In this document: piece after piece, positions 17,919-32,808 of the stretch
How positions within the stretch are numbered: the first letter of the stretch is position 1
Layout: the number at the start of each line of letters is the position of its first letter
Assembly (NCBI GenBank): GCA_025453415.1
Contig: JALOQL010000002.1
Coordinates: 1-43,433 of the forward strand
Length of the DNA stretch: 43,433 nt
From: Minisyncoccota bacterium
Lineage (GTDB): Bacteria; Patescibacteriota; Minisyncoccia; Minisyncoccales; UBA5738
Direction of reading: 5' to 3'
Program-made: the position numbers and the translations under genes
The notes under the pieces: model-generated
The model's input: the letters and a program-made list of their open reading frames with translations, nothing else
What the model was told of the DNA's origin: nothing
The model's database searches: none

Positions 17919-19055
17919 CTATCTTAAAACTTCCCTTACGCTATGGATAACATGGTCTAAATCATTTCTTGACATCTTCGGATACAGCGGCAAAGAAACT
18001 TCCCTTTCGTAGACCCATTGGGCGTTGGGAAAATCTTCTTTTTTCAACCCGAAATTTTTCCGGTAATATGGCTGGAGATGCAAGGGAATGAAATGGACGC
18101 TGCATTGGACCCCGTTGGCGGACATTTTTTCAATGAACTCCGCCCGGTCGGCGTTTTCGAGCAAGATCGGATAAAGATGGTAAATATGTTTTCCGTATTC
18201 CATTTCCCGGGGAATGACTACTCCGCCGATTTTCGACAACTCTTGGTCGTATATTCCGGCATATTCCCTCCTGGTCCGGTTGAAACCGTCCAGCTTTTTA
18301 ATTTGGTGAATTCCCAAAGCCGCCTGAATATCCATCATATTATATTTCCAGCCGCATTCTTCGATCTCGTAATACCAATTGCCTTTCTTGGAATATCTTT
18401 TCCAGGCATCGCGGTTCATCCCGTGCAATTTCAAGACTTCGGCCTTCGCGGCGATGTCGGCGTCGTCGGTCGCGATCGCACCGCCTTCCCCGGTCGCCAA
18501 ATTCTTCGTCACGTAAAAACTGAAACAAGTGGCTTTGCCGATAGTCCCGATCTTTCTGCCTTTATATTCCGCGCCAATGGCATGCGCCGCGTCCTCGATG
18601 ACCGCCAATTTATATTCTCCGGCGATTTCCATAATTCGATCCATGTCGCAAGCTTGGCCGCCGTAATGGACGGGAATGATGGCTTTCGTTCTTATCGTGA
18701 TCGCCTTCCTTATTTTTTCCGGATCGATATTAAAAGAATCCCGATTGATATCCACGAAAACCGGCGTAGCGCCCACCTGAACGATCACGTTGGCTGTGGA
18801 AGCGAAGGTGAAAGTCGTAGTGATCACTTCATCGCCGGGGCCGATATTGAGCGCCAACAGGGAAAGATGCAGCGCCGCCGTGCACGAATTGACCGCGACG
18901 GCATATTTGGCGCCGACATATTCGGCGATCATTTTTTCGAATCTGACGGTCTTCGGGCCGGTCGTCAGCCAGCCGCTTTTCAGGGTATCGACCACCTCGT
19001 CAATCTCTTCTTGGCCGATCATTGGCTGGCAAAACGGGATGTATTTATTTTCCAT
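17919..19055 (-). CDS. DegT/DnrJ/EryC1/StrS-family PLP aminotransferase
   Basis: 378 aa. Motifs: PFCQPMIGQEEIDEVVDTLKSGWLTTGPKTVRFE, NSCTAALHLSLLALNIGPGDEVI, EDAAHAIGA, FSFYVTKNLATGEGGAI. Confidence 0.9.
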   Translation of the reverse strand: MENKYIPFCQPMIGQEEIDEVVDTLKSGWLTTGPKTVRFEKMIAEYVGAKYAVAVNSCTAALHLSLLALNIGPGDEVITTTFTFASTANVIVQVGATPVFVDINRDSFNIDPEKIRKAITIRTKAIIPVHYGGQACDMDRIMEIAGEYKLAVIEDAAHAIGAEYKGRKIGTIGKATCFSFYVTKNLATGEGGAIATDDADIAAKAEVLKLHGMNRDAWKRYSKKGNWYYEIEECGWKYNMMDIQAALGIHQIKKLDGFNRTRREYAGIYDQELSKIGGVVIPREMEYGKHIYHLYPILLENADRAEFIEKMSANGVQCSVHFIPLHLQPYYRKNFGLKKEDFPNAQWVYEREVSLPLYPKMSRNDLDHVIHSVREVLR

Positions 19056-20142
19056 AAGAGTTGCTTGCCAGTTGGCGGTAAATATCTTCCATTTTATCCA
19101 ATTCTTTGCGAAAGTTGTACTTTTCCTCGATCAGTTCGCGGTTGGCCTGTTTCAGTTCGGTCCGGCTTTGGCTGTTCTTTATCAGAAAAACTATCTTTCG
19201 CGCAAGCTGGCGCCAGTCGCGCAACGGCACCACGAAACCGTTGCGGCCGCCATTCAAGATCTCGCGGTTTTCCCCCGCGTCGGTTACGACCGGCACCATC
19301 CCCGAAGACATTGCTTCGAGAAGGCTGACCGAGGTACTGTCCGAAAGCGACGTGGAAACGTAGATATCGGCCGTCCGCAGATAGCGCGGCAGATCATTCT
19401 GGGGAATCCAGCCGATAAAACGGATATGATGGGCGCATTCCAGCCAGGCCGCCATTTCTTTCAGCTTCCTTCCCTGCGATCCCCGGCCGGCCACGATGAA
19501 TTTGGCGTTGGGGACTTCCTTAATAACCTCGGGCACCGCCCTGATCAGCGTTTCCACGTCGTAGATCGGCTCCAGGCTCCGGATGCTTATCACGGATACC
19601 GAATCTTCAAGGCCCAGCTCTTCGACGATCGCGCCGTCTTTGGGCCCGGGCGTAAATTTTTCTGTATCCACGCCGAAATATATTATCTTGATCTTTTGGG
19701 AAGGCACTCCCAGATTAATCAGCTCTTTTTTAACCATCTCGGCGTCGCAGGTGATGACATCGGCCCTTTCCAAAACCGCTTTGATAACGGGCCTGAAAGC
19801 GGCAAGCTGGGCCGTGATCAGGATATCCGAACCCCAGGCGGTCAAAACGAACGGATGGAAACCGCTCAACGCACCGATGATGCCGTTGATTCCCGCGTAA
19901 TGGGCATGAAAAACATCGGGGGCGATACGGTTGATGGCCGCCTTGACCGGCGCAACGTTCAACGCGGCGTTGGCTTCCTTAACCGCAAAATTCCGGAAAA
20001 TTTTTATTTCGGTATTGGAAATGCTGCCAAAACGGTTGGGTGTCAGCGTCAGCCAGCTGACTTGATGCCCTTTGTCGGCAAAATATTTTATCCACCGGTA
20101 GCTATGGATCGAATCGGCGCCGGCCAGAAAGCATAATTTCAT
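19045..20142 (-). CDS. GT4-family glycosyltransferase
   Basis: 365 aa with a two-Rossmann GT-B layout. C-terminal STSLSDSTSVSLLEAMSSGMVPVVTDAGENREIL. The N-terminus HSYRWIKYFADKGHQVSWLTL is paralogous to 32792..33913. Confidence 0.85.
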   Translation of the reverse strand: MKLCFLAGADSIHSYRWIKYFADKGHQVSWLTLTPNRFGSISNTEIKIFRNFAVKEANAALNVAPVKAAINRIAPDVFHAHYAGINGIIGALSGFHPFVLTAWGSDILITAQLAAFRPVIKAVLERADVITCDAEMVKKELINLGVPSQKIKIIYFGVDTEKFTPGPKDGAIVEELGLEDSVSVISIRSLEPIYDVETLIRAVPEVIKEVPNAKFIVAGRGSQGRKLKEMAAWLECAHHIRFIGWIPQNDLPRYLRTADIYVSTSLSDSTSVSLLEAMSSGMVPVVTDAGENREILNGGRNGFVVPLRDWRQLARKIVFLIKNSQSRTELKQANRELIEEKYNFRKELDKMEDIYRQLASNSYGK

Positions 20143-21455
20143 AATTTTTTATATCTCAATGCCGCCGAAAGAAAATTGCGGTAAAATTTGAAATCCTCTT
20201 TTTGTAAAAATAATACCGATCCGGCGCGATTGCCCGAAATATTTCCATAGACAAACACTGTCGCCGCAAACACAAGAAAATACGAGATCGATGTCGCCCA
20301 GGCGGCGCCCGAAATTCCAAATTTCGGGATAAATATAATATTGAGGAATACGTTTACCAGCAAAGAAACCCCGATAATGTAAGTATTGACCATGGGTTTT
20401 CCCCGGGCGGCGATATCATTGGCCAATATCCGCCATCCGGAAATGAACACGTTGCCAATCAATAAAATCTGCAGGGAATAAACAGCTTCGATGAATTCCT
20501 CCGAATAGAAAAACACCACCAGCCATCGGCTCAACAAGAAAACGGCCAAAGCGAGAAGGAAGGTCACGTAAAAAATGTTCCGGCAAACAAACGGAGTGAA
20601 TTTTTTCAGCCTATCGGCATCGGTTTCGGCCGCCACCCGGGGAAGAAGCACGGTTCCGGCCGAGGTCGATAAAAGCCAAGTGCCTTCGGCGATCCTGGTT
20701 GCGGCATAATAGATTCCGGTCGCGGCCGGATTCATAAAAAAATTGATCAGGAAAAGATCGGCCCGATAATGCAGGAAATTAAAAACACTGGCCAGCCATG
20801 ATTTCAATCCATAAAGCGCGGCATCATTAAAATACTTGCGGCTGAATTTTGCCGAAGGCCGCCCGATCTCGCCGACAACCATCAAAAACAGGAAACCGCC
20901 CGCAATTGCAAAAGAAACGGTCTGCGCCACAATCGCCGCGCCGATCCGGTATTTTGCGCCCAGCAACAACAAAACCGCCAGCGCCAAAAATAAAAGCGGC
21001 TGGAGCAGAGTAACGGCGTTATATTTACCGATCCTTTGCAATCCGAGCAGAATGCTGCTGGCAATATCGAAAAATATATAAAAAGGCAGCAGCAATAGCG
21101 CCAGGTAAAGGTAATAAGGCTCGACGCCGGGGAACAGCGCGCTTCCCCAAAAATGGACCGTGGCCGCGCCGCCCGCCAGCGTCACGACACCGATCGTAAC
21201 CGCCAACAAAATGCTTGAACCGAACACAACCTTCGCGGGATACTCCTTTCTGCCGACATGAAATACCGCCGCCATGCCCAGGCCAAAATTGGACAACACC
21301 AGGATTAATCCCGGCAGAAGCGTTGCCAGGGAATATATCCCTTGCCCTTGGGGACCCAGCGCCCGGGCAATAACCACGGTCGCAAGCATGCCCAAAACGA
21401 TCGTCATGATGCGGGTGATTAAAGTGGTCGTGGTATTTTTCAGAAATTCCGCCAT
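20139..21455 (-). CDS. wzx: Wzx-type oligosaccharide flippase (MOP superfamily polysaccharide biosynthesis protein)
   Basis: The track start at 21470 is TTG. The first ATG is 21455 (MAEFLKNTTT...). About 12 hydrophobic spans. Strings: ARALGPQGQGIYSLA, RADLFLINFF, LLPRVAAETD, GISGAAWATSISY. Confidence 0.85.
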   Translation of the reverse strand: MAEFLKNTTTTLITRIMTIVLGMLATVVIARALGPQGQGIYSLATLLPGLILVLSNFGLGMAAVFHVGRKEYPAKVVFGSSILLAVTIGVVTLAGGAATVHFWGSALFPGVEPYYLYLALLLLPFYIFFDIASSILLGLQRIGKYNAVTLLQPLLFLALAVLLLLGAKYRIGAAIVAQTVSFAIAGGFLFLMVVGEIGRPSAKFSRKYFNDAALYGLKSWLASVFNFLHYRADLFLINFFMNPAATGIYYAATRIAEGTWLLSTSAGTVLLPRVAAETDADRLKKFTPFVCRNIFYVTFLLALAVFLLSRWLVVFFYSEEFIEAVYSLQILLIGNVFISGWRILANDIAARGKPMVNTYIIGVSLLVNVFLNIIFIPKFGISGAAWATSISYFLVFAATVFVYGNISGNRAGSVLFLQKEDFKFYRNFLSAALRYKKL

Positions 21456-21466
21456 TTTAATTTCGA

Positions 21467-22396
21467 TCAATTATCCAAACTCATAAAATATCCGGCTGTC
21501 CTGCCGATGCCCTCCTCGATGCCAACCTTAGGTTCCCATCCCAGCTCGATCCTGATCTTGGATGAGTCAAGGCAGCTGCGCTTCTGTTCTCCCGCCAGCG
21601 CGGCGCCGTATTTTTTGTCGCATGGTTTGCCGCAAGCCTTCGCGACGAGCTCGAATATCCGGTTGATGTCGGTTTCGATGCCGGTACCGACGTTATAAAC
21701 TCCGTCGCCCCGGCGCGCCGCCAGCAAAAGCGCGGCAACGACGTCTTCAACATAAATGAAGTCCCGCGTCTGCCGGCCGTCGCCGCTGATCGCCGGCCCT
21801 ATGCCCGCCAGCATCCGGTTGCAAAAAAACGCTACCACGCCCGCTTCTGCATGGTAATTTTGGCGCGGACCGTAAACATTTGGCGGCCGCATGATCACTC
21901 GCGAAAGACTCCCCGTCTGATGGTAATAATTAAGATATTTTTCCACCGCCAGCTTGGCCACGCCATAGGGCGATACCGGCGCCGGATCGCAATTTTCCGA
22001 AGTCGGTATCGTGGCCGCATCGCCATATATCGCGCCGCCGGTGGACATGAATATGAATTTGGATTGCGGCGACGGCCGCCAACGTAAAAAATTTTCGATC
22101 ACATTCAGCGACCCCAGGATATTTATGCGGGCGTCGGTAATCGGGTCTTTCACCGATCGCCGGACATTGATATGCGCCGCAAGATGAAAAACCATATCCG
22201 GCCTTTCCTTTTCAAATATGCCGCCAATTTCCTCGCCGCAAATGTCGGCCTGATAGAACCGGCTGGCTTTATTGATATTTTTTTCCTCGCCCGTCGAAAG
22301 GTCATCGATCACCGCCGTATCAAAGCCTTCATTTACCAATTTGTCGGTCAGGTGGCTGCCGATAAAACCGGCGCCGCCGGTAATGATGCATTTCAT
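21467..22396 (-). CDS. NAD-dependent NDP-sugar epimerase/dehydratase (extended SDR; GalE/UXS-like)
   Basis: The track start at 22462 would overlap the upstream gene by 70 nt. ATG 22396 forms an ATGA overlap with the upstream stop. The protein begins MKCIITGGAGFIGSHL and carries SPYGVAKLAVE (YxxxK). Confidence 0.9.
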   Translation of the reverse strand: MKCIITGGAGFIGSHLTDKLVNEGFDTAVIDDLSTGEEKNINKASRFYQADICGEEIGGIFEKERPDMVFHLAAHINVRRSVKDPITDARINILGSLNVIENFLRWRPSPQSKFIFMSTGGAIYGDAATIPTSENCDPAPVSPYGVAKLAVEKYLNYYHQTGSLSRVIMRPPNVYGPRQNYHAEAGVVAFFCNRMLAGIGPAISGDGRQTRDFIYVEDVVAALLLAARRGDGVYNVGTGIETDINRIFELVAKACGKPCDKKYGAALAGEQKRSCLDSSKIRIELGWEPKVGIEEGIGRTAGYFMSLDN

Positions 22397-23604
22397 TGTT
22401 TTTCCCGCGCCGTTATCAGCTTCATCAGCTGCGCCGCGTTTTTTCGGGAATTGAACTCGCAATCGACCTTGGCCATACCCGCTTTCCGGATGGTCTCAAT
22501 ATCGATCTTCCCGTCAATTATGTCGCCAATAGTCCGGCCAAGCGCCGCCGCATCCTTTTCGGGCACGATAATCCCGGCGCCGCCGCCCAGCAATTCGGCA
22601 ATCCCGCCGGTATTGGTGGAAACGGCCAACACGCCATAGGCCATCGCCTCCATGAGCGAAACCGGAATCCCCTCGTGGCTCCCGTCGTTGGTATTGATGC
22701 TCGGGAGAATGATCACGTCGGCTTGGCCTTTTTCGTAAATTTCCATGATCGAATTGTGGGGAGCGGCGCCGCAAAACTCAATGCAATCCCGTAATCCCCT
22801 CAATTTTACCTGCCGCACCAACTTTTGCTTCAAATGACCGTCGCCGAAAAACCGGCATTTTATCCTCTCCCTCTTTTGCGGATCCAGCCGGCCGATGGCG
22901 TCGATCAGGTACCGGTGGCCCTTAACGTCGATAAGGTTGGCCGGCACCACGATTGCCAGCCGGCCGCCCCGATTCGCAATAGGCGGCAAGGTTTCAGGAA
23001 TGCTCACTCCCATATGGATCATCTTCAGCCGGCCTTCGAATTCGTTGCCGATGATCTTGCTCAAACCGCCCTTTCCCAGCTGCGAAATGCACCGCACGAA
23101 CGCCGCCGACCGGACTTTCTGGCGCAAAATATTATTCTCGGTGATATCCCACCGGTGAAGCGTGAAACTCCAGGGTATCCCGGTCATTTTCGAAATTACA
23201 AACGCCATCGTGGCCGTCGTTGTCCCCCAATGGGCGTGAATATGGCCCACATCCATCTTCCGGATTGTCCGCGCGACAAAGACCGCTTTGGGAAAGACTG
23301 CCAGGTTCTTCATCGCGATCACCAGATTGCGCGACGAGGCCACGATCGTAACGATCGTGTCCCAAAGAATCCGGTGCGAAAACAACATCTTGATAAAGTA
23401 AACCATCATTTGCCCGCTTATCAGCGGGGTCCAGATCGCGTTCTTGATGAGGTAACGGCCTTCCTTATGGAAAATATCCTCGGGCGGGTTGCGGGCGATT
23501 ATCAAAAAATCACCGCCCAAACGCTGGATGTCCAGCATCTCTTCGAAAATGAAGGCTTCGCCCTTGCCCCAGGGGGTTTGCGCGGTGATAAAAATCGTTT
23601 TCAT
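22393..23604 (-). CDS. GT4-family glycosyltransferase
   Basis: 403 aa. GSHEGIPVSLMEAMAYGVLAVSTNTGGIAELL (E-x7-E region). 4-nt overlaps on both sides. Confidence 0.85.
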   Translation of the reverse strand: MKTIFITAQTPWGKGEAFIFEEMLDIQRLGGDFLIIARNPPEDIFHKEGRYLIKNAIWTPLISGQMMVYFIKMLFSHRILWDTIVTIVASSRNLVIAMKNLAVFPKAVFVARTIRKMDVGHIHAHWGTTTATMAFVISKMTGIPWSFTLHRWDITENNILRQKVRSAAFVRCISQLGKGGLSKIIGNEFEGRLKMIHMGVSIPETLPPIANRGGRLAIVVPANLIDVKGHRYLIDAIGRLDPQKRERIKCRFFGDGHLKQKLVRQVKLRGLRDCIEFCGAAPHNSIMEIYEKGQADVIILPSINTNDGSHEGIPVSLMEAMAYGVLAVSTNTGGIAELLGGGAGIIVPEKDAAALGRTIGDIIDGKIDIETIRKAGMAKVDCEFNSRKNAAQLMKLITAREKQ

Positions 23605-25940
23605 CGCTTTTTATGGAATTCTTCGGCCGCCCGGCGCAAACAATCCCGCGTTTCCCGCGCCGCCCGCTCCCAGGAATAACGCTCGCAGGCCAGCCGGCGG
23701 CCGGCCCGTCCCATCGCTTCCAAATCTTTTTCCCTGGCAAAGATATCCTCGATTCTACTTGCCAAACTCTGCGCATCGCCCGCCCGGAAAACAAAACCGC
23801 AGCCGCTCTCTTCAATGGGTTCGGCAATCCCCCGCACCCCGCCCGCGAGCACCGGCAAACCGCAAGCCAGGTAATCGTAAAGCTTTAAAGGCGAAAAACC
23901 GTACCCAAGATCAAGTTTTGACCGCGAAATATAGCCGATGTCGAAAGAATTCAGATATTGCGGCAATTCTTCATAATCGACCCAGTCTCTGAAAATAAAT
24001 TCCTTTCCCAAACGCAGATCCTTCACCAATTTTTCCAAACTTGCCCGGCATTCGCCGCCGCCCACCAAAAGATAACGCACCGAACCGATGCCCCGGCTTT
24101 TGAGCCGCGCGGCCGCCTCGACCAATGTTTCCAGATCCTGCCATAAACCAATGGACCCGGCAAAACCGACGTAAAAAAAACCTTCGGCAAGGCCAATCCC
24201 GCGGCGACACGCCTGTTTGTCGAGCGGCCGGTAAATCCCGGTGTCGGTCCCGTTGGAGATCACTCTGACCGTATCTTCCCTTAATTTGAACCTTTTGACA
24301 AGCCGGTCTTTGATGCCGGCGGTGACGCAAATCACCTGCGCCGCCAGGCGGTAATTCACGCGCTCGGAAAACCCGAAAACCGCCAAAAGCCAGCCGGGAT
24401 AGCCGGCAAGCCGCAGTTCGTCATCGATCATGCCGTTGACCTCGACCACATAAGGCACGCCAAATATCCAACACCAAAGAGGTACGGCCAGATCAAACCT
24501 TTCCTTGCGGTTGTAGACCGCGTCGGGCCTAAACTTCACCAAAAGATAAGGCAGGTATAAAAACCGCATCAGCTCCGCGTAAAGGTAAGATTTAAATGAC
24601 CCTGGCTTAACCGGAATTTCCACGGTCCTCAAAGAAAATTTGCCGCCGGCCTTCGCGCCCCTTGCCACCTCATGGCGCGGCACCAGCAACAACAGATCGT
24701 CGCCCAGCGCCATAAGGTTTTTGGCGATTTGCGCGAAATGCCTTTTTTCCAAGACCGGGTCGATGCTTGGCGAAGTATAAATTATCTTCATGTCTTTGAA
24801 GGCGGGTTGAGCGCTCCGCCCCCCCATCCTTTGCGTCAGCAACGAAATCGCGCGGCGATAATATTCCAGGTCGGATTTTTGGACGAAAATGACTTCGAAA
24901 ACCCGGTTCCCCGATATCCGGCAATAAACCGCCACCATGACCGAAAAAAGGACCAGGCAGGAGATGGAAAACGACCATGCCGCCCCGTCCACGCCAAACC
25001 GAGGGATCAGGACCAACGACAACACCACGCTCGTAACCAGGGAAAGAATATTGATATAGGCATTGATCATGGGCTTGCCGCGGCCGGCAAAATCATTGCC
25101 CAGCGCAATTAGGCCGCTGGTGGCGACAATACCGATCAGGGAAATGTTCAGCGGCGAGACCGCGCCCAGGAAAGCAGTCGAATAAAGGAATAAGACTATG
25201 AAATGGCTGAAAATGTAAATCCCGGCGGCGGCAACTACGGACAAAAAAAGCACATTCCGCGAAACCAGCGGCGTTATCCGCTTCAGTTTTTCCGGATCGG
25301 TTTCGCAGGCGACCCGGGGAAAAAGCACCAAACCGGTCGACTGGGCGATGAGCCAGATCTTTTCCGAGATCCCTCGCGCGACCGAGTACAATCCGACCGC
25401 CGCCGGCGACAGGAAAAAATTTATTAAAAAAACATCGTTGCGCTGGCGCAAAAATGAAAAAAGCGACCCCAGGTAAATTTTACCCCCGTAAACAAGCATG
25501 TCCCTGGCATATGAACCGTTGAATGCGAACGAAAAGCCGCCGGCCGCCCGCTTGCTCCAAACCCAAAGCAAAAAAAATACCGCGACATAAGATAAATATT
25601 CCGGGCCGATATTGGGGAAAAGCCGCCCGCCGAACAATACCACCGCGGCGGCACCCGCCGCCAATGCCAGCAAGGAAACCAAAAAGGAAAGAATGACGGT
25701 ATTTCCCAAAGCCTGCGCCGGAAGATATTTTTTCCGGCCGATATTGTAGATAGCGGCCGAACCGATGCCCGGGTTGGCAAATGTCGCCAAAAGCGACGCG
25801 AAAAGCGCCGCCATGGCATAAATACCTTTTCCTTCGGGATCAAGCGCCCGCGCCACGATCACCGACGAAACCAACGTCAGGAAAAAACCGGCGATATTGG
25901 CGGCGAAAGTAAAAATCGTATCTTTCAGGAATTTTCCCAT
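23601..25940 (-). CDS. Fusion protein: N-terminal Wzx-like (MOP) membrane domain + C-terminal GT4 glycosyltransferase
   Basis: 779 aa. Residues ~1-385 are paralogous to 20139..21455 (ARALDPEGKGIYAMA, RNDVFLINFF, LFPRVACETD, GVDGAAWSFSIS, ISGNRV). Residues ~400-779 form a GT-B domain (KIIYTSPS...LLLLVPRH..., FSPLKLYDYLACGLPVLAGGVRGIAEPI). Confidence 0.8.
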   Translation of the reverse strand: MGKFLKDTIFTFAANIAGFFLTLVSSVIVARALDPEGKGIYAMAALFASLLATFANPGIGSAAIYNIGRKKYLPAQALGNTVILSFLVSLLALAAGAAAVVLFGGRLFPNIGPEYLSYVAVFFLLWVWSKRAAGGFSFAFNGSYARDMLVYGGKIYLGSLFSFLRQRNDVFLINFFLSPAAVGLYSVARGISEKIWLIAQSTGLVLFPRVACETDPEKLKRITPLVSRNVLFLSVVAAAGIYIFSHFIVLFLYSTAFLGAVSPLNISLIGIVATSGLIALGNDFAGRGKPMINAYINILSLVTSVVLSLVLIPRFGVDGAAWSFSISCLVLFSVMVAVYCRISGNRVFEVIFVQKSDLEYYRRAISLLTQRMGGRSAQPAFKDMKIIYTSPSIDPVLEKRHFAQIAKNLMALGDDLLLLVPRHEVARGAKAGGKFSLRTVEIPVKPGSFKSYLYAELMRFLYLPYLLVKFRPDAVYNRKERFDLAVPLWCWIFGVPYVVEVNGMIDDELRLAGYPGWLLAVFGFSERVNYRLAAQVICVTAGIKDRLVKRFKLREDTVRVISNGTDTGIYRPLDKQACRRGIGLAEGFFYVGFAGSIGLWQDLETLVEAAARLKSRGIGSVRYLLVGGGECRASLEKLVKDLRLGKEFIFRDWVDYEELPQYLNSFDIGYISRSKLDLGYGFSPLKLYDYLACGLPVLAGGVRGIAEPIEESGCGFVFRAGDAQSLASRIEDIFAREKDLEAMGRAGRRLACERYSWERAARETRDCLRRAAEEFHKKR

Positions 25941-25951
25941 CTCCTGTTTGA

Positions 25952-27772
25952 TTAGTTATCCGGAAAAAAACGCCTTAAGAAAAGTTCGAAGGTTGCGATA
26001 TACATTATCTTCATTGAATTATCCCTTTGCCCGGAATATTGCTGGTCAAAAAGCTTGGCAATATATCTTTTACTAAGATAGCGTTGCGATAAAAGATTTC
26101 TTTCATCCGACAAAAGTTTCCCGAAGAATTCCCGCCATGAGCCTTCTTTGGCAAACCATTTTTCAAAATCGACATAATTGCGCTTTGTCCAAAAAGCAAC
26201 CTTTCCGGCGGTCGCTTGCCGCACAATTTGCCGGACCGTATCCAGCCGGCTCCGAAAATTGGCGCCTGCCTGCCACAGCCATCGCGGCGCGTCGGCGCGC
26301 ACGCCGGTGGAATTATATGGTATGGCAGCCAGCTTGGGAAAACGCTTCGCCAGCAATCGGCGGTAAATGCGATGCTGGCTTCTCATGCCAGGCGGCAACG
26401 CCATTATGACATCAATAAAACCATTGTCCATCGCCGGTGAAGAGTGTTCGACCTGCGACCGCATCAGGCGGTAGCCTTCCATCGTGAACCGCCTCACGTG
26501 ATTATCCAAGAAAAATTTATCGATATGGTTGGCTAAATCTTCGCAAGAAGACGCGGCAAAACTCTCCTCCAGGGAAAACCGCGGCCATTCTTGGGATTTA
26601 TCGTAAAAACCGGCGTTAAAAAGCTCTCCCCTCTCTTCATGGGAAAAGAGCGCCGTTTGGTATATCGCTTCTTTCAATCGTTCCCGGTCATGGACATGAG
26701 AGAACTTGTCCAAATAGCTGCCTCCCAAAGTCAGGTCAAGCGCAAAACCATCAAATACGACCTCGGCATCGCGCGCCGCCAATTTATGGATAGGCGGAAT
26801 ATACCCCACGCCAATATAATCCATGCCTTCAGTTATTTCCACTGCCTCGGACGCGCCCTGGGTAATTATTTGCGGCTCAATATCAAAGCAATTCCAGGGC
26901 AGATTTAAACGATTGGCCACCTTTTGGGCAATCCGGACTTCTTCGCAATCGGCGCCGCCAAAAGAAAACGCCCGGAAGTTACCCCTGGCATCCGCCGGAA
27001 TAAGGCCGGCCACCAAACGCGAATCCAGGCCACCGCTCAGTGATACCGAGCCAGTCCGGGAAGGTCGCGTCCGTAAGACCATCGCCCGATCAAGCGTCTG
27101 CGCCAATTCGTCAACGAATCGCGCCTCGCTTTTTACATTGTCGGGCGAATATGGAAAATCCCAATACCGATCAAAATCCGCCTTCCCGCCTTGAAAAGAG
27201 AATATCGTCCCGGCCGGAAAAGCGCGCACGCCTCCGAAAAATGTCTTATCGCCCAATAACTTTCCGAAAGCAAACCAATCCGCGACCGCGGCCTCATCTA
27301 GTCGCGGCGCACCTCCGGCCCGTGCCACCGCCGCGGCGGACGGGGCAAGCATAAAATAATTTGAATCTATCGCGAAGAAATGCGGCCGGGAACCAAAACG
27401 GTCGCTGGCAACCAATGTCTTTCTTTGATTAAAATCGTGGATACAGATAATAAATGAACCGTTTAAGCGGTGAATAAAATCCACGCCTTCTTTCTCGTAA
27501 AGACCAAGGCACAACTTGGCATCATTTCCGCTCTCCGCGGTTCCATACAGTTCACCGTCAAGCATGACCGCCACGCTCCGGTCATGGTTAAAAACCGGCT
27601 GCGGCCCAGGATTGAATGTTCCTAAATGAAGGCGAGCTCCGCAAAATGAAGCATGGCAAAAACGGTCGGTTTGGAAATGGCCGCGACCCATTGCTGCGGA
27701 AATCATTTTTTCCAGCAATGCTCCATCGATGGCAATATTTGACGATGGCGCAACACAGATCAATCCAGGCAT
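25952..27772 (-). CDS. Asparagine synthetase (AsnB)-like amidotransferase/amide ligase, N-terminal nucleophile Cys absent
   Basis: The track start at 27865 overlaps the upstream GT4 by 80 nt. ATG 27772 lies 13 nt after that stop. The N-terminus reads MPGLICVAPS where AsnB has MCG/MCS. PP-loop SVSLSGGLDSRLVAG is present. 606 aa. Confidence 0.85.
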   Translation of the reverse strand: MPGLICVAPSSNIAIDGALLEKMISAAMGRGHFQTDRFCHASFCGARLHLGTFNPGPQPVFNHDRSVAVMLDGELYGTAESGNDAKLCLGLYEKEGVDFIHRLNGSFIICIHDFNQRKTLVASDRFGSRPHFFAIDSNYFMLAPSAAAVARAGGAPRLDEAAVADWFAFGKLLGDKTFFGGVRAFPAGTIFSFQGGKADFDRYWDFPYSPDNVKSEARFVDELAQTLDRAMVLRTRPSRTGSVSLSGGLDSRLVAGLIPADARGNFRAFSFGGADCEEVRIAQKVANRLNLPWNCFDIEPQIITQGASEAVEITEGMDYIGVGYIPPIHKLAARDAEVVFDGFALDLTLGGSYLDKFSHVHDRERLKEAIYQTALFSHEERGELFNAGFYDKSQEWPRFSLEESFAASSCEDLANHIDKFFLDNHVRRFTMEGYRLMRSQVEHSSPAMDNGFIDVIMALPPGMRSQHRIYRRLLAKRFPKLAAIPYNSTGVRADAPRWLWQAGANFRSRLDTVRQIVRQATAGKVAFWTKRNYVDFEKWFAKEGSWREFFGKLLSDERNLLSQRYLSKRYIAKLFDQQYSGQRDNSMKIMYIATFELFLRRFFPDN

Positions 27773-27785
27773 ATTTTTTTGGCAA

Positions 27786-28964
27786 TCATCGCTTTTTTGA
27801 GATTTGGCAGTATGCTTCGTGCAGCTGTTTACCCACGGCCGCAAGGCTGAAATTATCCGCGGCATACCTGTTCAACTCTTTTGGCGCATAATCCTGGCAA
27901 TGATCCAGCATTCGGACCACCGCGGCGGCCAATGAGGATTTGTCGCCCAACGGCACCAGTATTCCCCGGTTCGCGCTGATAGTCCGGCGAAATGCCGGAA
28001 TATCATAGGCCACCACCGGAATACCGCAAGCCAAAGCCTCGACCGTGCTGGCGCCAAAAGTTTCCCCATAGCTGGGATGCAGCATAAAATCACATTGCCG
28101 CATCATCCGGGCAACCTCCTGTTTTGGCTGTAAACCATGGAAAATGGCCCGATCGCCGATCCCCAATTGCCGCGCCATTTCTTCGTAATCTCCCTGACGC
28201 GGCCCGCCGCCGAAAATATGCATTTGCCAACCGGAACGCTCCCTTAGCTTTACCAGCACCTCCAATATATCGCCGATCCCCTTTTCCGGAAGCAGATTTC
28301 CGACGAACACGATCCGCTTGGGCCGCCCATCGATTCCGCACTTTGACTCCGGAAAAAAAATCGAAGTATCCACCGCGTTGGGAATGACGCGGAAATTAGC
28401 TTTGATCCCGTAGGATTGGATCGCTGCCATCAACGGCTGGCTCACCGGCAACACCGCGTCCGCCAAGCCGAACGCCAAACGGGCTTTTAATATCTCTGAC
28501 GCCGGCAAAGCTTTGCGAGAAAAAATACTCCAATGTTCGGTGACCGCGACCGGAATACCGAGGCGCCGGCCAATGGCAACCGCCGCCAATCCGGAAACAT
28601 AGACATGGGCATGAATCACATCCGGGGTAAAACCACTTCTTTTAATTTGCCGGAAAGCGCGGCCGACACACCATAGATATGTTGCCAGCGAAGTTCCCGG
28701 CAAACGCGGTTTTCGGTAAAACAATCTGTAAGTGACAATCCCCTGCGCCACTTCCGGGTCGCTTTCCTCCTCAATCTGCCACAATCGTCTTGCCCCCGAA
28801 TCCGCCTGGATCCAATACAGAACCCGCACGTCATCATTTATCTTTGCGGCTTTCGCGTGTTCGCGCACAAAAACGTTATCGGCCGGATGGTCTTTGGTGG
28901 GATAGCTTCCGGTGATAAAAAGCACCTTCAACCGGCGTTTGCCGGTTACGCTTTCGGACACCAT
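27786..28964 (-). CDS. GT4-family glycosyltransferase
   Basis: 392 aa. Strings: KVLFITGSYP, HPSYGETFGASTVEALACGIPVVAYDIPAFRRTI. Confidence 0.85.
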   Translation of the reverse strand: MVSESVTGKRRLKVLFITGSYPTKDHPADNVFVREHAKAAKINDDVRVLYWIQADSGARRLWQIEEESDPEVAQGIVTYRLFYRKPRLPGTSLATYLWCVGRAFRQIKRSGFTPDVIHAHVYVSGLAAVAIGRRLGIPVAVTEHWSIFSRKALPASEILKARLAFGLADAVLPVSQPLMAAIQSYGIKANFRVIPNAVDTSIFFPESKCGIDGRPKRIVFVGNLLPEKGIGDILEVLVKLRERSGWQMHIFGGGPRQGDYEEMARQLGIGDRAIFHGLQPKQEVARMMRQCDFMLHPSYGETFGASTVEALACGIPVVAYDIPAFRRTISANRGILVPLGDKSSLAAAVVRMLDHCQDYAPKELNRYAADNFSLAAVGKQLHEAYCQISKKR

Positions 28965-28967
28965 GCT

Positions 28968-30011
28968 TCAAATATTATTACAGGGGCAGGTCCGGCAAGG
29001 GGCAAGTTCGGGCCGTCTTTTATCCAAGAAATCCCGCCGCCGTTCCTGGAAGTGGGCGTTGTTCCAAACGTCCTTGTCGTAGAATTTGCCATTGCCGCGC
29101 ATGTTCAGTATCTGGCCGGTGCAGCCGCCCACGTCCCCTTCGCCGTCGACCCGGATCAGGCGGAAATAATCCGCGCAGTAACGCTCCCGGCGGTTGCGGT
29201 CCAAAAGCGTGGGCATATTGATCTTCAGGCCGCAATCCCCTTTCTTCACTTGGTCCAAGATCTTGACCGCATCGGCATCATCGCGAAACAACGACCGCTC
29301 CTCGGCGGTGAATCCCGGCGAGGGCGAGGGCAGGAAGTTATGGAAAGTCGCGCCGTCAACGCCGCATTGGCGCGCGTAGTCGATCATCTTGAAAATATCT
29401 TTGACATTCTGCCGGTCCAAAATATAAGAAAATGTTATTTCGAGCTGCGATTTCCGCGCGTTCCTTTCGGCAACCAGCTTGATCACGTTCTCACGGACCT
29501 TGGCATGGAATTCCCTGGGCTGGCCGGTCATGCGGAAGAATTCTTCCTCGTTGTGGCCGTCAACGCTGATCTCGATCGCCGCCAACCCGCATTCCAGAAC
29601 GTCGTTTATCTTGTCATCCAGCACGGTGCCGTTGGAAACCGTTACGGCATTCATCTTGCGCTCAAACACCGCGTAACGGACCATCTTGAAAAAATCCGGA
29701 TTAAGCAGCGGCTCGCCGGTACCGATGAAAGAGATCCCTTGCGCGTTGCGGAATCTATCCGCGAAACGGCGGAAAGTTTCAAAATCGATGTCGCGGCCGC
29801 CGGGGTAGTTGTAGCCGCTGTGTTTGATCTTTTTGGAATGGGTCTGGCACATGTCGCAAGCATAAGTGCACCGATTGGTAACGTGTATCGACAGCTCGAT
29901 CGGATCGTAAAACAGCCGCGGGCCCCGGGGCAGGAATTTATATTTGGCGTAATTGATGACCTGGCCGGGGGTTATTTGGCCGGTAATTAGTTTTTTAATG
30001 ATTGGTTTCAT
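28968..30011 (-). CDS. Radical SAM enzyme with Cys-rich SPASM/twitch-like C-terminal region
   Basis: The track start at 30086 overlaps the upstream GT2. ATG 30011 (MKPIIKKLI...) lies 22 nt after that stop. CxxxCxxC cluster in HVTNRCTYACDMCQ, then GTGEPLLNP. C-terminal cysteines: CADYFRLIRVDGEGDVGGC and CRTCPC. Confidence 0.85.
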   Translation of the reverse strand: MKPIIKKLITGQITPGQVINYAKYKFLPRGPRLFYDPIELSIHVTNRCTYACDMCQTHSKKIKHSGYNYPGGRDIDFETFRRFADRFRNAQGISFIGTGEPLLNPDFFKMVRYAVFERKMNAVTVSNGTVLDDKINDVLECGLAAIEISVDGHNEEEFFRMTGQPREFHAKVRENVIKLVAERNARKSQLEITFSYILDRQNVKDIFKMIDYARQCGVDGATFHNFLPSPSPGFTAEERSLFRDDADAVKILDQVKKGDCGLKINMPTLLDRNRRERYCADYFRLIRVDGEGDVGGCTGQILNMRGNGKFYDKDVWNNAHFQERRRDFLDKRRPELAPCRTCPCNNI

Positions 30012-30033
30012 ATTATGAATCTTCAATAGTAAA

Positions 30034-31050
30034 CTAACACGCAGGCGGTGCATTATCAACCGCCGGCACCGTTTTTTTGCCCGCAACCGTATCGTTGAAA
30101 AAATCCAGCCGGCCGGCCTTGATCGGGTTTCGATGGCGCCAACAATACCAAAAAGCCGCGGCCAGCCATTTTAATTCCGCAAACGCCGCCTTCCGGTCTT
30201 TTGAAAAAAGAACTCTTGCCAGGGTAAAACCCAGCTCGCCGGCGCGGCTCCAAACATAGCAAAAGCGATCGCGGCGGCCGCGGCCAAAGAGCTTGCAAAA
30301 AAGATACCATCCGTAAACCTGGCGCATGTAAATGAATTCTTTGGCCGCCGCCCGGCCCGCCGGCGAGCTTTTATGGACAAGTTTTGCCGCCGGAGTGATG
30401 AAAAGCGAACCGGGATATTTTTTGAAAACGCGGTAGGAAAATTCCAGGTCCTCGCCGTCGGAATATTTCTTTAGGTTTTCGTCATAAAAGAATTCGCCGT
30501 ACACCCGCCTCTTGAAAGAATGGTTGGCGCCGGAAAGCCATTCGCAGCCTATTACCCGGTCCAGCCGCGCCGGATAGGTCGCGCTCACGGACGGCAAGGC
30601 CCGACAGCGATTGTTCTCCAAATGGTAATGGCAAAACATCCGGCGAAAAAAATTCCTTTTTAAAGAAAACCTTTCCTGCTTGATATATCCCTGCACTCCC
30701 AGCGCCTGGCGCTGCTTGCGGTAAACCGCCGATATTCCGCGGACATAATCCTTGTCCAGGATCACATCGTCATCCAAAAAAATAATGATCTCGCCATGGG
30801 TCGCTTTGACGCCAAGGTTGCGCGCCACGGTCAAACTATTCTCTTGGCGGTTCTCCAAATAATCCAATCGGACGCCGCGGCGCGCGAATTCGTCTTTCCT
30901 TCGCGACACCAAAGAGCGGGTCGGGGCATCATCGCCGTTATCGACCACCAGCACCTCGACGGGCAATTCGCTTTGCGCCAAGATCGACCCCAGGCATTCG
31001 TCAAGATCGCGCGTTCGCTTGTATGTTGGAATGATGACTGAAATTTCCAT
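30034..31050 (-). CDS. GT2-family glycosyltransferase (soluble type)
   Basis: 338 aa. Motifs: ISVIIPTYKRTRDLDECLGSILAQ, VLVVDNGDD, IIFLDDDV (DxD). Confidence 0.85.
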   Translation of the reverse strand: MEISVIIPTYKRTRDLDECLGSILAQSELPVEVLVVDNGDDAPTRSLVSRRKDEFARRGVRLDYLENRQENSLTVARNLGVKATHGEIIIFLDDDVILDKDYVRGISAVYRKQRQALGVQGYIKQERFSLKRNFFRRMFCHYHLENNRCRALPSVSATYPARLDRVIGCEWLSGANHSFKRRVYGEFFYDENLKKYSDGEDLEFSYRVFKKYPGSLFITPAAKLVHKSSPAGRAAAKEFIYMRQVYGWYLFCKLFGRGRRDRFCYVWSRAGELGFTLARVLFSKDRKAAFAELKWLAAAFWYCWRHRNPIKAGRLDFFNDTVAGKKTVPAVDNAPPAC

Positions 31051-31803: not shown

Positions 31804-32808
31804 TTATAACTCCTGGGCCTGCAAAAAGTAAAGCTGGTTAAAATCCGCGGCATTTTCAATGCGGGATTCGACTTCTTCTGACGCCACTCCGCCAATCCGT
31901 CCAAACCCCAGCGCTTTCATGCCATTGGCCGTGGCCATCCGAATCGCTTCTTTTGCCGGGATTTTGCCAGCGTCGCAATTAACGCCCTTTTGGAGCAGGG
32001 CCGCGAATTTGGCCGCTTCCCAAACGTCCAAACGGTTGGAACTGGCCGCGCCATCAGTCCCCAAACACACATTAATGCCCGCTTTTAACATCTTCTCCAC
32101 CGGCGCGATTCCCGAACCAAGCTTCAGATTGCTTAGCGGACAATGGGCGACATTTGCTTTCCGCCGGGCGATGATCTCGATATCATGGTCGGTCACCCAA
32201 ACGCAATGAGCCAATAGCGCCCGCTCGTCCAGCAATCCCAAGCGGTCAATATATTCCACCGGCGAGCAATGGTTGGTTTTTTGGCAATCATCGAATTCCT
32301 TCTTGGTTTCGGCCAAATGGATGTGCAACAGGGTTCCGTATTTGTCGGCAAGTTTTTTGCATTTCAACAGCGTCGCTTCGGAAACGGTATAAATAGCGTG
32401 GGGCGAGACTGCAACCTTAATGTATTCGCTGGCGCGATATTTCGCGATCAGTTTCTCGGTAGCCTCCAGCGCTTCCCCGCTATTAGCCGCGCTGGGAGTC
32501 GGAAAATCAAGGATTCCCTCCCCGACCACCGCCGCCATTCCCATCTCCTCGGCCGCGCGCGCCGCTTCGTCTTCGAAAAAATACATATCGCGAAAGAGCC
32601 CAACGCGGTTGGCCCGCATTTCCGCGATCGCGGCCTTTGTTTGCTCATACACAAACGCCGGCGTAACCCGGGCGCGTTCGGCCGGAAAAATATGTTCGTT
32701 CAGCCAAACCTCCAGAGGCAAGTCCTCGGCCAAACCGCGAAAGCCCACCATGGCCGCGTGGGCATGGGCATTGACGAGCGGCAATGTGAAATTATTGTTC
32801 GTGTCCAT
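31804..32808 (-). CDS. Amidohydrolase-superfamily deaminase, MtaD/DadD-like (MTA / SAH / 5'-deoxyadenosine deaminase type), short form
   Basis: 334 aa. Motifs: PLVNAHAHAAM (HxH), LPLEVWLNEHIFPAE, HIHLAETKKE, LAHCVW, CPLSNLKLGSGIAP, LGTDGAASSN. It starts directly at the HxH motif, without the usual N-terminal beta-sandwich segment. Confidence 0.8.
   Translation of the reverse strand: MDTNNNFTLPLVNAHAHAAMVGFRGLAEDLPLEVWLNEHIFPAERARVTPAFVYEQTKAAIAEMRANRVGLFRDMYFFEDEAARAAEEMGMAAVVGEGILDFPTPSAANSGEALEATEKLIAKYRASEYIKVAVSPHAIYTVSEATLLKCKKLADKYGTLLHIHLAETKKEFDDCQKTNHCSPVEYIDRLGLLDERALLAHCVWVTDHDIEIIARRKANVAHCPLSNLKLGSGIAPVEKMLKAGINVCLGTDGAASSNRLDVWEAAKFAALLQKGVNCDAGKIPAKEAIRMATANGMKALGFGRIGGVASEEVESRIENAADFNQLYFLQAQEL

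What the first reader, a model, noticed from the sequence alone, without database searches (positions are those of the whole stretch)
23601..25940. Wzx-like flippase domain with an internal deletion fused in frame to a GT4 glycosyltransferase
This is a single 779-aa ORF. The first ~385 residues align by eye with the stand-alone Wzx at 20139-21455. Shared strings are ARAL.P.G.GIY, (R)xD(L/V)FLINFF, L(L/F)PRVA.ETD, GAAW and ISGNR. Between the shared anchors FP..(E/G)P and FLINFF, the fusion has 53 residues where the paralog has 117. About 64 residues, roughly 2-3 TM helices, are therefore missing. After a short linker (...LLTQRMGGRSAQPAFKD), a complete GT-B/GT4 domain follows. I do not know of a characterised Wzx-GT fusion. 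It could couple the last glycosyl transfer to flipping. Alternatively, a decayed flippase may serve only as a membrane anchor.
Basis: seen in the sequence. Interest (0 to 1): 0.7.

Follow-up and report, generated by a model that had tools for sequence, protein, structure and literature searches.

The report
Flippase-glycosyltransferase fusion, deletion allele
In a sugar-coat gene cluster of an uncultured bacterium, a lipid-sugar flippase gene has run into the next glycosyltransferase gene through what looks like a one-base frameshift, and this particular copy has also lost two membrane helices of the flippase, so it is a real but recent and probably accidental fusion rather than a new kind of machine.

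Summary
ORF 23601-25940(-) is a single 779-aa frame: a Wzx/MOP flippase lacking exactly 64 residues, a 15-aa linker, then a complete GT4 glycosyltransferase.

Context changes what this means.
1. A second assembly (JGI contig L004) is 100.000% identical to the window over 12.9 kb, except for 192 nt that restore an intact 12-TM flippase (843-aa fusion). The deletion is therefore an allele of this assembly only, not a fixed feature.
2. In the nearest relative (same gene order, 53-74% identical proteins), wzx and the GT4 are separate genes overlapping by ATGA. The window keeps that ATGA, and a G7 run sits 27 nt upstream. G6 would restore the two-gene layout exactly.
3. Independent Wzx-GT4 fusions occur sporadically elsewhere (P0077, P0127), each starting the GT at its old start Met.

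The deletion removes most of TM4, all of TM5 and the first 10 residues of TM6. That includes cavity-lining TM4 and the conserved LQxIKKYN loop. In/out parity is kept, so the GT4 stays cytoplasmic (K+R 20 inside, 1 outside).

Best reading: a tolerated read-through fusion. In this allele the flippase is most likely dead and acts only as a membrane anchor for an intact GT4. Interest is modest.

The parts
23601..25940 (-). Whole 779-aa ORF: deleted Wzx flippase + linker + GT4
24837..25940 (-). Flippase (Wzx/MOP) part, aa 1-368, 10 predicted TM helices instead of 12, plus the conserved cytoplasmic C-terminal helix
   Evidence: Pfam; family alignment; AF2 model pLDDT 91.7; the intact version matches WzxE 9g9n with TM-score 0.74/0.80
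25591..25593 (-). Deletion junction (between L116 and S117). 192 nt present in contig L004 (10350-10541) are absent here. Only 1 nt of microhomology.
25542..25604 (-). Chimeric helix PEYL|SYVAVFFLLWVWSKRAA: the first 4 residues of TM4 joined to the last 17 of TM6. It runs out-to-in like both parents. About 14 hydrophobic residues; lowest confidence in the model.
24792..24836 (-). Linker TQRMGGRSAQPAFKD (aa 369-383), the frameshifted former 3' tail of wzx
24819..24825 (-). G7 homopolymer (C7 on + strand). One G fewer gives a flippase ending ...QRMGGGALNPPSKT* on the TGA of the ATGA below.
24788..24791 (-). Relic ATGA, the ancestral stop/start overlap. ATG = M384, the start Met of stand-alone GT4 orthologues.
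23601..24791 (-). GT4 (GT-B) glycosyltransferase domain, aa 384-779, all subfamily-invariant residues present
23601..23604 (-). ATGA overlap between the fusion's stop and the next GT gene (22393..23604). This is the normal gene junction in this operon.
   Evidence: coordinates
20139..21455 (-). Intact paralogous flippase Wzx2 (42-48% identical), a candidate to take over flipping
19045..20142 (-). GT4 gene that overlaps the Wzx2 stop by ATGA (20139-20142). It is an internal control showing the unfused layout.

Best explanation
The 779-aa ORF is a deletion allele of a young, lineage-specific wzx-GT4 gene fusion.

Step 1 (origin of the fusion; shown by comparison). The ancestor had wzx and a GT4 gene as separate, translationally coupled genes overlapping by ATGA, as the nearest relative still does. 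A +1 frameshift in the last 44 nt of wzx moved the flippase frame off the TGA and onto the ATG of the GT4 gene. The most economical event is G6 to G7 at 24819-24825 (inferred). The result is an 843-aa protein: a 12-TM Wzx, a 15-aa linker and the GT4.

Step 2 (deletion; shown as a sequence fact). In the genome behind this window, a 192-nt in-frame deletion removed residues 117-180: most of TM4, all of TM5 and the first 10 residues of TM6.

Consequences (inferred).
- The remnant keeps 10 TM passes and its N-in/C-in topology, so the GT4 stays at the cytoplasmic face.
- The GT4 keeps all its conserved residues and most likely still adds one sugar to the undecaprenyl-PP-linked repeat unit.
- The flippase has lost part of its central cavity and the conserved TM4-TM5 loop. 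It is most likely transport-dead and serves only as a membrane anchor.
- Flipping would then fall to the intact paralog Wzx2, or that glycan is no longer exported.
- Only in-frame deletions can survive in a fused gene if the downstream GT4 is needed, which would explain the clean multiple of three.
- The fusion itself looks like a tolerated accident rather than a selected design. It is confined to one strain, and similar fusions elsewhere are sporadic and narrowly distributed.
For: Contig L004 is 100.000% identical to window 35940-25592 and 25592-23005 (12.9 kb, 0 mismatches). The only difference is 192 nt, which encode the missing 64 aa.

Relative L001-L003 has the same gene order: AsnS - Wzx 446 aa - GT4 393 aa - GT - epimerase - Wzx2 - GT4 - DegT. 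Its Wzx stop and GT4 start overlap by 4 nt.

The window retains the ATGA. G6 restores a stop exactly on it, whereas G8 does not. A +1 insertion must lie in the 44 nt between the frame-1 TGA at 24838-24836 and the ATGA, and the G7 lies there. Only 3 G/C runs of 7 or more exist in 43.4 kb, so the chance of one falling in that interval is about 0.004.

GT4 residue 1 aligns with the start Met of ten stand-alone orthologues, and all invariant columns are kept.

The intact flippase half is 70.9% identical to its orthologue, among the best-conserved proteins of the cluster (range 50-74%). There was therefore no decay before the deletion.

AF2 helix map and WzxE match. In WzxE, TM4 lines the cavity, R143 maps into the deleted loop, both termini are cytoplasmic, and the C-terminal tail sits at the lumen entrance (PMC11706664).

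K+R counts are 20 inside and 1 outside.

No other protein among 5.8e9 clusters or 1.84e9 representatives shares this fusion at high identity. Independent fusions P0077 (two sequencing runs) and P0127/P0213 also begin the GT at a Met or Val.

All other genes in the window are intact and match their orthologues in size, despite 37 A/T runs of 7 or more. This argues against a homopolymer-error-prone assembly.
Against: No read-level data are available. I could not show that the two assemblies come from independent read sets. I also could not show that the G7 length and the deletion are majority alleles rather than consensus or bubble-popping choices.

Loss of flippase activity is inferred from structure, not tested. 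AF2 still models the remnant confidently (pLDDT 91.7), although that is expected from the alignment and says nothing about stability.

A wzx null is usually toxic because undecaprenyl-P is sequestered (general knowledge). A dead flippase therefore needs compensation by Wzx2 or an upstream block, and neither is shown.

The organism lacks Shine-Dalgarno motifs. Independent initiation of a free GT4 at M384 therefore cannot be excluded, in which case the anchor role would be irrelevant.

The G6-to-G7 event is the simplest origin, but the tail is too diverged from the relative (53-71% protein identity) to prove which indel occurred.
Confidence: 0.6

Rival explanations
1. Artefact. The organism really has two ordinary overlapping genes (wzx, GT4). 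The fusion is a +1 homopolymer miscall in a G-run, and/or the 192-nt deletion is a mis-assembly or library chimera.
For: The fusion is exactly one G in a G7 run away from the canonical ATGA layout. The deletion is seen in only one of two otherwise identical assemblies. The strain is known from only these two assemblies. Their independence could not be established.
Against: Both assemblies carry G7 with 0 mismatches in 12.9 kb. All of the roughly 37 other genes in the window are intact and match their orthologues in size, despite many A/T runs of 7-8, so the consensus is not error-prone. The deletion breakpoints share only 1 nt, and no repeat is long enough for a k-mer graph to jump. The junction must therefore exist in reads. 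The JGI gene caller also called the 843-aa fusion.
Confidence: 0.15
2. Selected bifunctional 'make-and-flip' enzyme. Tethering the GT4 to the Wzx C-terminal tail, which sits at the cytoplasmic entrance of the lumen, channels the finished lipid-linked repeat unit straight into the flippase. The architecture would be analogous to MprF (synthase + flippase). The window's deletion is then just a loss-of-function variant of it.
For: In the intact allele both halves are fully conserved, and the flippase half is among the best-conserved proteins of the cluster. The WzxE C-terminal tail is adjacent to the lumen entrance and essential. The same architecture arose independently at least twice more: P0077 in two runs, and P0127 in four members from NCBI, JGI and Logan. 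The leader of the internal ATG has lost the A/T-richness typical of starts in this genome (AT 0.45 against a mean of 0.71; the orthologue has A7), which is consistent with translation only as a fusion.
Against: Each fusion family is tiny (1-4 cluster members). The closest relatives of both halves are all stand-alone proteins. The fusion here has no detectable age: it is seen in one strain, and the nearest relative is unfused. No inter-domain contact could be modelled, because the mixed alignment failed. No characterised precedent was found in the literature.
Confidence: 0.15
3. Phase-variable switch. The G7 tract slips between G6 (two separate genes, with the GT4 made by termination-reinitiation coupling) and G7 (fusion), changing the dosage or activity of flippase and GT4 and hence the surface glycan.
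For: A homopolymeric G tract sits exactly in the 44-nt interval where a 1-nt change toggles the two layouts. Poly-G phase variation in surface-glycan loci is well known in other bacteria (general knowledge).
Against: G7 is short for efficient slippage. Two other C7/G7 runs exist in the window with no evident role. Both assemblies show the same length. The relative has no G tract there.
Confidence: 0.05
4. Pseudogenisation in progress. In the window's strain the whole fused gene, GT4 included, is non-functional, and this branch of the glycan pathway is being lost.
For: Two successive lesions (frameshift fusion, then a 64-aa deletion) hit the same gene. A second flippase/GT set exists in the locus.
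Against: The deletion is in frame and preserves topology. There are no stops, and no other substitutions relative to the intact allele. The GT4 invariants are all intact.
Confidence: 0.05

Closest known systems
Wzx O-unit / lipid III flippases of the MOP superfamily (solved example: E. coli WzxE, PDB 9g9n/9g95; Pfam PF01943, PF13440)
   Same: The flippase half matches the Pfam Wzx families. The family profile hits WzxE at E=4e-16. The AF2 model of the intact allele superposes on WzxE with TM-score 0.74/0.80. It has 12 TM helices in two six-helix bundles and sits in a Wzx/Wzy/Wzz-type locus.
   Different: The window's copy lacks most of TM4, all of TM5 and part of TM6 (10 TM). It carries a roughly 400-aa cytoplasmic enzyme on the C-terminal tail, which in WzxE is a short Arg-rich segment essential for activity.
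Stand-alone GT4 (GT-B, retaining) glycosyltransferases, e.g. PimB (3okc), MshA, and NCBIfam TIGR04063 / WcaI-like
   Same: Both Rossmann-like halves are detected (PF13439 + PF00534). The SPLKLY(E/D)YLACG motif and all subfamily invariants are present. It is 53% identical to the syntenic stand-alone orthologue P0216.
   Different: It has no start of its own in the annotated frame and is translated as the C-terminal domain of a polytopic membrane protein. It scores below the curated cut-off of every NCBIfam equivalog, so donor and acceptor are unknown.
MprF (lysyl-phosphatidylglycerol synthase fused to its flippase)
   Same: The architecture follows the same logic: an N-terminal membrane flippase domain plus a C-terminal cytoplasmic enzyme that makes the lipid-linked substrate to be flipped (PMC11980842, PMC5898192).
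   Different: There is no homology. The flippase fold, the enzyme and the lipid all differ. MprF is a widespread, conserved, experimentally proven fusion, whereas this one is confined to a single strain.
Other sporadic Wzx fusions in public data: P0077 (Wzx-GT4, 819 aa), P0127/P0213 (Wzx + GT4-like, 915/888 aa), P0078 (GT2-Wzx), P0064 and P0044 (Wzx-methyltransferase)
   Same: The principle is the same: a flippase joined to a cytoplasmic enzyme of the same pathway. In P0077 and P0213 the GT part again begins at a Met, which suggests the same read-through origin.
   Different: They are only about 30-35% identical, so they are independent events, and all have an intact flippase. None is characterised.

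Membership tests
Wzx / MOP-superfamily polysaccharide flippase (PF01943, PF13440) | Significant match to the family profiles | tested here: met
   PF01943 scores 49.1 bits (cut-off 28.2) and PF13440 scores 48.2 bits (cut-off 23), but each covers only part of the model, with a gap in the middle. Profile against WzxE: E=4e-16.
Wzx / MOP-superfamily polysaccharide flippase (PF01943, PF13440) | 12 TM helices in two six-helix bundles (TM1-6, TM7-12) | tested here: not met
   The window allele has 10 helices. Residues equivalent to 117-180 of the intact allele (TM4 from its fifth residue, TM5, first 10 residues of TM6) are absent. The intact allele in L004 meets the feature.
Wzx / MOP-superfamily polysaccharide flippase (PF01943, PF13440) | Family-conserved residues present | tested here: inconclusive
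   All invariant columns outside the deletion are kept, including R209 and the D283...R287-G-K-P290 motif. Five near-invariant columns inside the deletion are lost: L and P of TM4, Q and N of the LQxIKKYN loop, and L of TM5. WzxE R143 aligns to that Q.
Wzx / MOP-superfamily polysaccharide flippase (PF01943, PF13440) | N and C termini cytoplasmic | tested here: met
   Positive-inside count: K+R 20 in / 2 out (intact allele) and 20 in / 1 out (deleted allele), using AF2 helix boundaries. This agrees with the WzxE structure. It is a prediction, not an experiment.
Wzx / MOP-superfamily polysaccharide flippase (PF01943, PF13440) | Translocates Und-PP-linked oligosaccharide | not testable with these tools
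   This needs complementation of a wzx mutant or an in vitro flipping assay.
GT4 glycosyltransferase (GT-B fold; PF13439 + PF00534) | Both GT-B halves detected above the curated cut-offs | tested here: met
   PF13439 scores 58.8 bits (aa 400-567) and PF00534 scores 73.9 bits (aa 577-749). Sequence hits to solved GT4 enzymes 6kih, 6tvp, 3okc and 7qsg.
GT4 glycosyltransferase (GT-B fold; PF13439 + PF00534) | Subfamily-invariant (catalytic/nucleotide-sugar-binding region) residues intact | tested here: met
   All 13 invariant and 22 near-invariant columns of the alignment with 12 stand-alone relatives are kept. The SPLKLYDYLACG motif is present.
GT4 glycosyltransferase (GT-B fold; PF13439 + PF00534) | Glycosyl transfer; donor and acceptor identity | not testable with these tools
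   The best NCBIfam hits (TIGR04063, 97 bits against a cut-off of 442) are far below the equivalog thresholds.
MprF-type synthase-flippase fusion | Homology to the MprF flippase or synthase domains | tested here: not met
   No MprF-related family appears among the Pfam or NCBIfam hits. The resemblance is one of architecture only.
Phase-variable contingency locus | Homopolymer in coding sequence whose length change switches the reading frame | tested here: met
   The G7 run lies at 24819-24825. G6 gives two genes and G7 gives the fusion.
Phase-variable contingency locus | Observed tract-length polymorphism | tested here: not met
   Both available assemblies have G7. No read data are available. 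Two other G7 runs exist in the window.

The most novel reading that the evidence does not exclude
The intact 843-aa form is a working 'make-and-flip' enzyme. The GT4 that completes the lipid-linked repeat unit is tethered to the Wzx C-terminal tail, right at the cytoplasmic mouth of the flippase, and hands its product directly to the transporter. On this reading, independent Wzx-GT4, GT2-Wzx and Wzx-methyltransferase fusions elsewhere reflect a physical GT-flippase complex that normally exists non-covalently. The G7 tract could additionally let the population toggle between fused and split forms.
Probability: 0.15. Interest if true: 0.6.

Novelty: new variant of a known kind. Interest (0 to 1): 0.35.

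Why it matters
How Wzx flippases receive completed repeat units from the cytoplasmic glycosyltransferases, and how they check that the unit is complete, is still unclear. A natural covalent Wzx-GT4 fusion shows that a GT can be tolerated on the flippase's C-terminal tail, which in WzxE lies at the substrate entrance. This supports the idea that the last GT and the flippase work side by side.

The material offers a ready-made allelic series for testing that idea: split genes in the relative, the intact fusion in L004, and the fusion with a gutted flippase in the window.

As it stands, however, the evidence points to a recent, strain-level accident (a one-base frameshift plus a deletion) rather than a conserved new system. 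Its main practical value is as an annotation caveat. This 'bifunctional' protein in NCBI nr is a deletion allele, and its flippase half should not be assumed functional.

Tried and rejected
1. A mixed alignment of flippases and GT4s for full-length AF2 (A2) was rejected. MAFFT stacked the GT4 sequences on the flippase half, so only the two flippase domains were folded and no inter-domain geometry was obtained.

2. Scans of metagenome contigs and genome contigs with P0062 found no relative.

3. Exact-product look-ups gave no additional contigs. I tried P0001, the hypothetical stand-alone GT4, the downstream GT and the upstream GT4. Only the same JGI contig came back, so independence of the two assemblies and allele frequencies remain open.

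4. I looked for direct repeats at the deletion breakpoints that could explain slippage or assembly collapse. There is only 1 nt of microhomology and a weak imperfect similarity about 19 nt upstream.

5. I looked for a Shine-Dalgarno motif before the internal ATG to judge independent GT4 translation. This was uninformative, because almost no gene in the window has one.

6. P0070 and P0161 looked like Wzx-GT4 fusions by length but are GT4-GT4 proteins.

7. I tested whether the two wzx-GT4 pairs in the window are a recent module duplication. The flippases are 38-48% identical but the GT4s only 23%, so this was rejected.

8. Taxonomic placement via the nucleotide-sugar dehydrogenase failed. The best named hits are scattered uncultured MAGs.

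9. Five literature queries found no described natural Wzx-GT fusion. Absence from this library is not proof of absence.


Full report
OBSERVATION

The ORF at 23601..25940 on the minus strand is a single 779-codon frame starting with ATG. Pfam finds the Wzx-type flippase families Polysacc_synt and Polysacc_synt_3 in two separated pieces (aa 5-101 and 120-261). These are followed by both halves of a GT4 glycosyltransferase: Glyco_transf_4 at 400-567 and Glycos_transf_1 at 577-749. BLASTP against the stand-alone flippase at 20139..21470 gives two collinear blocks, 1-113 against 6-118 and 140-366 against 209-435. That leaves 26 residues in the fusion where the paralog has 90, so 64 residues are missing. 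A MAFFT alignment with twelve 436-461-aa homologues shows the same 64-column gap only in the window's protein.

THE DELETION IS AN ALLELE, NOT A FIXED FEATURE

The 90%-identity cluster of the window's protein contains an 843-aa member, P0062, from JGI/IMG. It is identical to the 779-aa protein at every position except for 64 extra residues after L116. Its contig, L004 (JGI 3300037461, 18.5 kb), matches window 35940-25592 and 25592-23005 at 100.000% identity with no mismatch in 12.9 kb. The sole difference is 192 nt present in L004 and absent in the window. The breakpoints share only one nucleotide, and no repeat is long enough for an assembler to collapse. The junction must therefore exist in reads. 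The simplest reading is a genuine in-frame deletion variant within one clonal population, although I could not inspect reads.

THE FUSION IS DERIVED AND ONE BASE AWAY FROM TWO GENES

The closest other flippase, P0002 (71% identical), lies in a locus (L001-L003) with the same gene order as the window. That order is asparagine-synthase-like amidotransferase, flippase, GT4, GT, epimerase, second flippase, GT4, DegT aminotransferase. Protein identities range from 50 to 74%. In that locus the flippase (446 aa) and the GT4 (393 aa) are separate genes whose stop and start overlap as ATGA. The same ATGA junction joins the fusion to the next GT gene and joins Wzx2 to its GT4 inside the window.

The window still has the ATGA at 24791-24788, and its ATG codes for M384. 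M384 aligns with the initiator Met of ten stand-alone orthologues (MKI[IL]YTSPSIDP). However, the flippase frame reads through it. Twenty-seven nucleotides upstream lies a G7 run (24819-24825). With G6 the flippase would end ...QRMGGGALNPPSKT* exactly on the TGA of the ATGA, whereas G8 does not restore it. A +1 insertion that created the fusion has to lie in the 44 nt between a stop in the alternative frame (24838-24836) and the ATGA. Only three G/C runs of 7 or more exist in the 43.4-kb window, so finding one in that interval has a chance of roughly 0.004. This is a post hoc estimate, and it supports G6-to-G7 slippage as the origin.

Both assemblies carry G7. All other genes in the window are intact and the same size as their orthologues, despite 37 A/T runs of 7-8 nt. 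A systematic homopolymer error is therefore unlikely.

HOW UNUSUAL IS THE ARCHITECTURE?

No other protein shares this fusion at high identity. This holds for the 5.8 billion clusters searched by words and for the 1.84 billion representatives searched exhaustively. The nearest relatives of both halves are all stand-alone proteins. The exhaustive search did reveal independent, distantly related cases (30-35% identity), whose domains were confirmed with Pfam:
- P0077 (819 aa) is a full Wzx plus GT4. It is found in two different sequencing runs inside a heptose/Wzy cluster.
- P0127/P0213 (915/888 aa) is Wzx plus a GT4-like domain, with four members from NCBI, JGI and Logan.
- P0078 is GT2-Wzx.
- P0064 and P0044 are Wzx-methyltransferase fusions.

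In P0077 and P0213 the GT part again begins with a Met, which points to the same read-through origin. The architecture is thus rare, recurrent and narrowly distributed each time. Five literature queries found no described natural Wzx-GT fusion. The nearest functional analogue is MprF, a lipid synthase fused to its flippase (PMC11980842, PMC5898192).

WHAT THE DELETION DOES

AF2 models the intact flippase domain with pLDDT 93.8 and pTM 0.90. The helices include TM4 at 113-138, TM5 at 142-166 and TM6 at 171-197. Foldseek's best PDB match is the Wzx flippase WzxE (9g9n, TM-score 0.74/0.80), and the family profile hits WzxE by sequence at E=4e-16.

The deletion (residues 117-180) removes TM4 from its fifth residue, all of TM5 and the first ten residues of TM6. 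It leaves a chimeric helix, PEYL|SYVAVFFLLWVWSKRAA, which runs outside-to-inside as both parent helices do. Two passes are lost and parity is kept. K+R counts are 20 on the predicted cytoplasmic side against 2 (intact allele) or 1 (deleted allele) outside.

In the deleted model, confidence drops to 61-75 around residues 101-120, and the remnant helix is only 15 residues long. The high confidence elsewhere is expected from the alignment and says nothing about stability.

According to the WzxE structure paper, the central cavity is formed by TM1-2, TM7-8 and part of TM4 and TM10, and a cytoplasmic arginine pair includes R143. In the profile alignment R143 falls on the near-invariant Q of the LQxIKKYN TM4-TM5 loop, which lies inside the deleted segment. 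I therefore infer that the window's flippase domain cannot transport. This is an inference, not a test.

WHAT THE REST DOES

The GT4 half keeps all 13 invariant and 22 near-invariant columns of its subfamily, including the SPLKLY(E/D)YLACG motif. It also matches solved GT4 enzymes by sequence. It is most likely an active cytoplasmic-face transferase acting on the undecaprenyl-PP-linked repeat unit. Its donor and acceptor are unknown, since all NCBIfam equivalog scores are far below cut-off.

The intact flippase half is 70.9% identical to its orthologue, among the highest values in the cluster. It was therefore under normal constraint until the deletion. In WzxE both termini are cytoplasmic, and the C-terminal tail lies next to the cytoplasmic entrance of the lumen. 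A GT4 on that tail would sit at the substrate entrance. That is compatible with hand-over of product, but it does not prove it.

This organism has essentially no Shine-Dalgarno motifs and uses A/T-rich leaders (mean A+T 0.71 over 23 starts). The 20 nt before M384 have A+T of 0.45, the lowest value, whereas the orthologue has an A7 run there. This weakly suggests that the GT4 is now made only as a fusion. If so, only in-frame deletions upstream would preserve it, which fits the 192-nt length.

LOCUS CONTEXT

The window is one long minus-strand surface-polysaccharide locus. It contains:
- a Wzz-like protein, a CapD-like dehydratase and three DegT aminotransferases;
- a UDP-sugar dehydrogenase and 2-epimerase;
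- at least eight GTs, several methyltransferases and a PIG-L deacetylase;
- a radical-SAM enzyme, an amidohydrolase and an AsnB-like amidotransferase;
- two flippases.

The second flippase, Wzx2 (20139-21455), is intact and is also conserved in the relative. It could take over flipping, but Wzx proteins are usually substrate-selective, so this is speculative.

VERDICT

The finding is real and was well described. What it represents is a very recent, strain-level event pair:
- a one-base frameshift that fused two translationally coupled genes, and
- in this assembly only, a 192-nt in-frame deletion that guts the flippase while keeping an intact GT4 tethered to the inner face of the membrane.

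It is a new variant of known kinds (Wzx, GT4) and not a new system. Interest is modest (0.35). It would rise if the intact fusion proved to channel substrate, or if the G tract proved phase-variable.

Noticed in passing
window-wide; gene starts listed: Almost none of about 28 gene starts has a Shine-Dalgarno motif. Leaders are A/T-rich instead (mean A+T 0.71 in positions -20..-1). This suggests an SD-independent initiation style, as in some bacterial phyla. Taxonomy could not be resolved.
   Followed up: partly
window 1490, 10971, 15406, 24819, 31215, 38736: All six G/C homopolymers of 6 or more are C on the + strand, which is G on the coding (-) strand. There are none of the opposite polarity. 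GC skew is negative across the whole window, in line with nearly all genes lying on the minus strand.
   Followed up: no
window 33910-35253 (-): A 447-aa ORF has no Pfam or NCBIfam hit. It is conserved (57% identity, same length and position) in the relative's locus, between the 2-epimerase and a GT4. It may be the missing Wzy-type polymerase, but this is not verified.
   Followed up: partly
window 28968-30086, 25952-27865, 31804-32808 (-): A radical-SAM/SPASM-like enzyme (the most conserved protein of the cluster, 73.7% to the relative), an AsnB-like amidotransferase and an amidohydrolase are embedded among the GTs. This hints at unusual sugar modification, such as amidation or C-methylation.
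   Followed up: no
window 9238-11191 (-), 8390-9241, 6817-7692: Alpha and beta subunits of a thiamine-dependent E1 dehydrogenase, an EamA transporter and a HAD hydrolase sit inside the polysaccharide locus. This is an uncommon set for a glycan cluster.
   Followed up: no
window 25952-27865 / 27786-28964 and 28968-30086 (-): The longest-ORF starts overlap the upstream genes by 80 nt and 53 nt. The JGI gene caller used shorter products for the same DNA (606 aa rather than 637, and 347 aa rather than 372), so the true starts are probably downstream.
   Followed up: partly
public proteins P0078, P0064, P0044, P0230-P0233: Other sporadic fusions of pathway enzymes turned up: GT2-Wzx (825 aa), Wzx-methyltransferase (982 and 693 aa), and GT4 fused to a Bac_transf phosphoglycosyl transferase (about 610 aa). 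Tightly packed glycan operons seem prone to read-through fusions.
   Followed up: partly
cluster of P0001: A 34-aa 'hypothetical protein' (P0061, JGI) is grouped in the same 90% cluster as the 779-aa protein, although it has no obvious resemblance. This is probably a clustering artefact.
   Followed up: no
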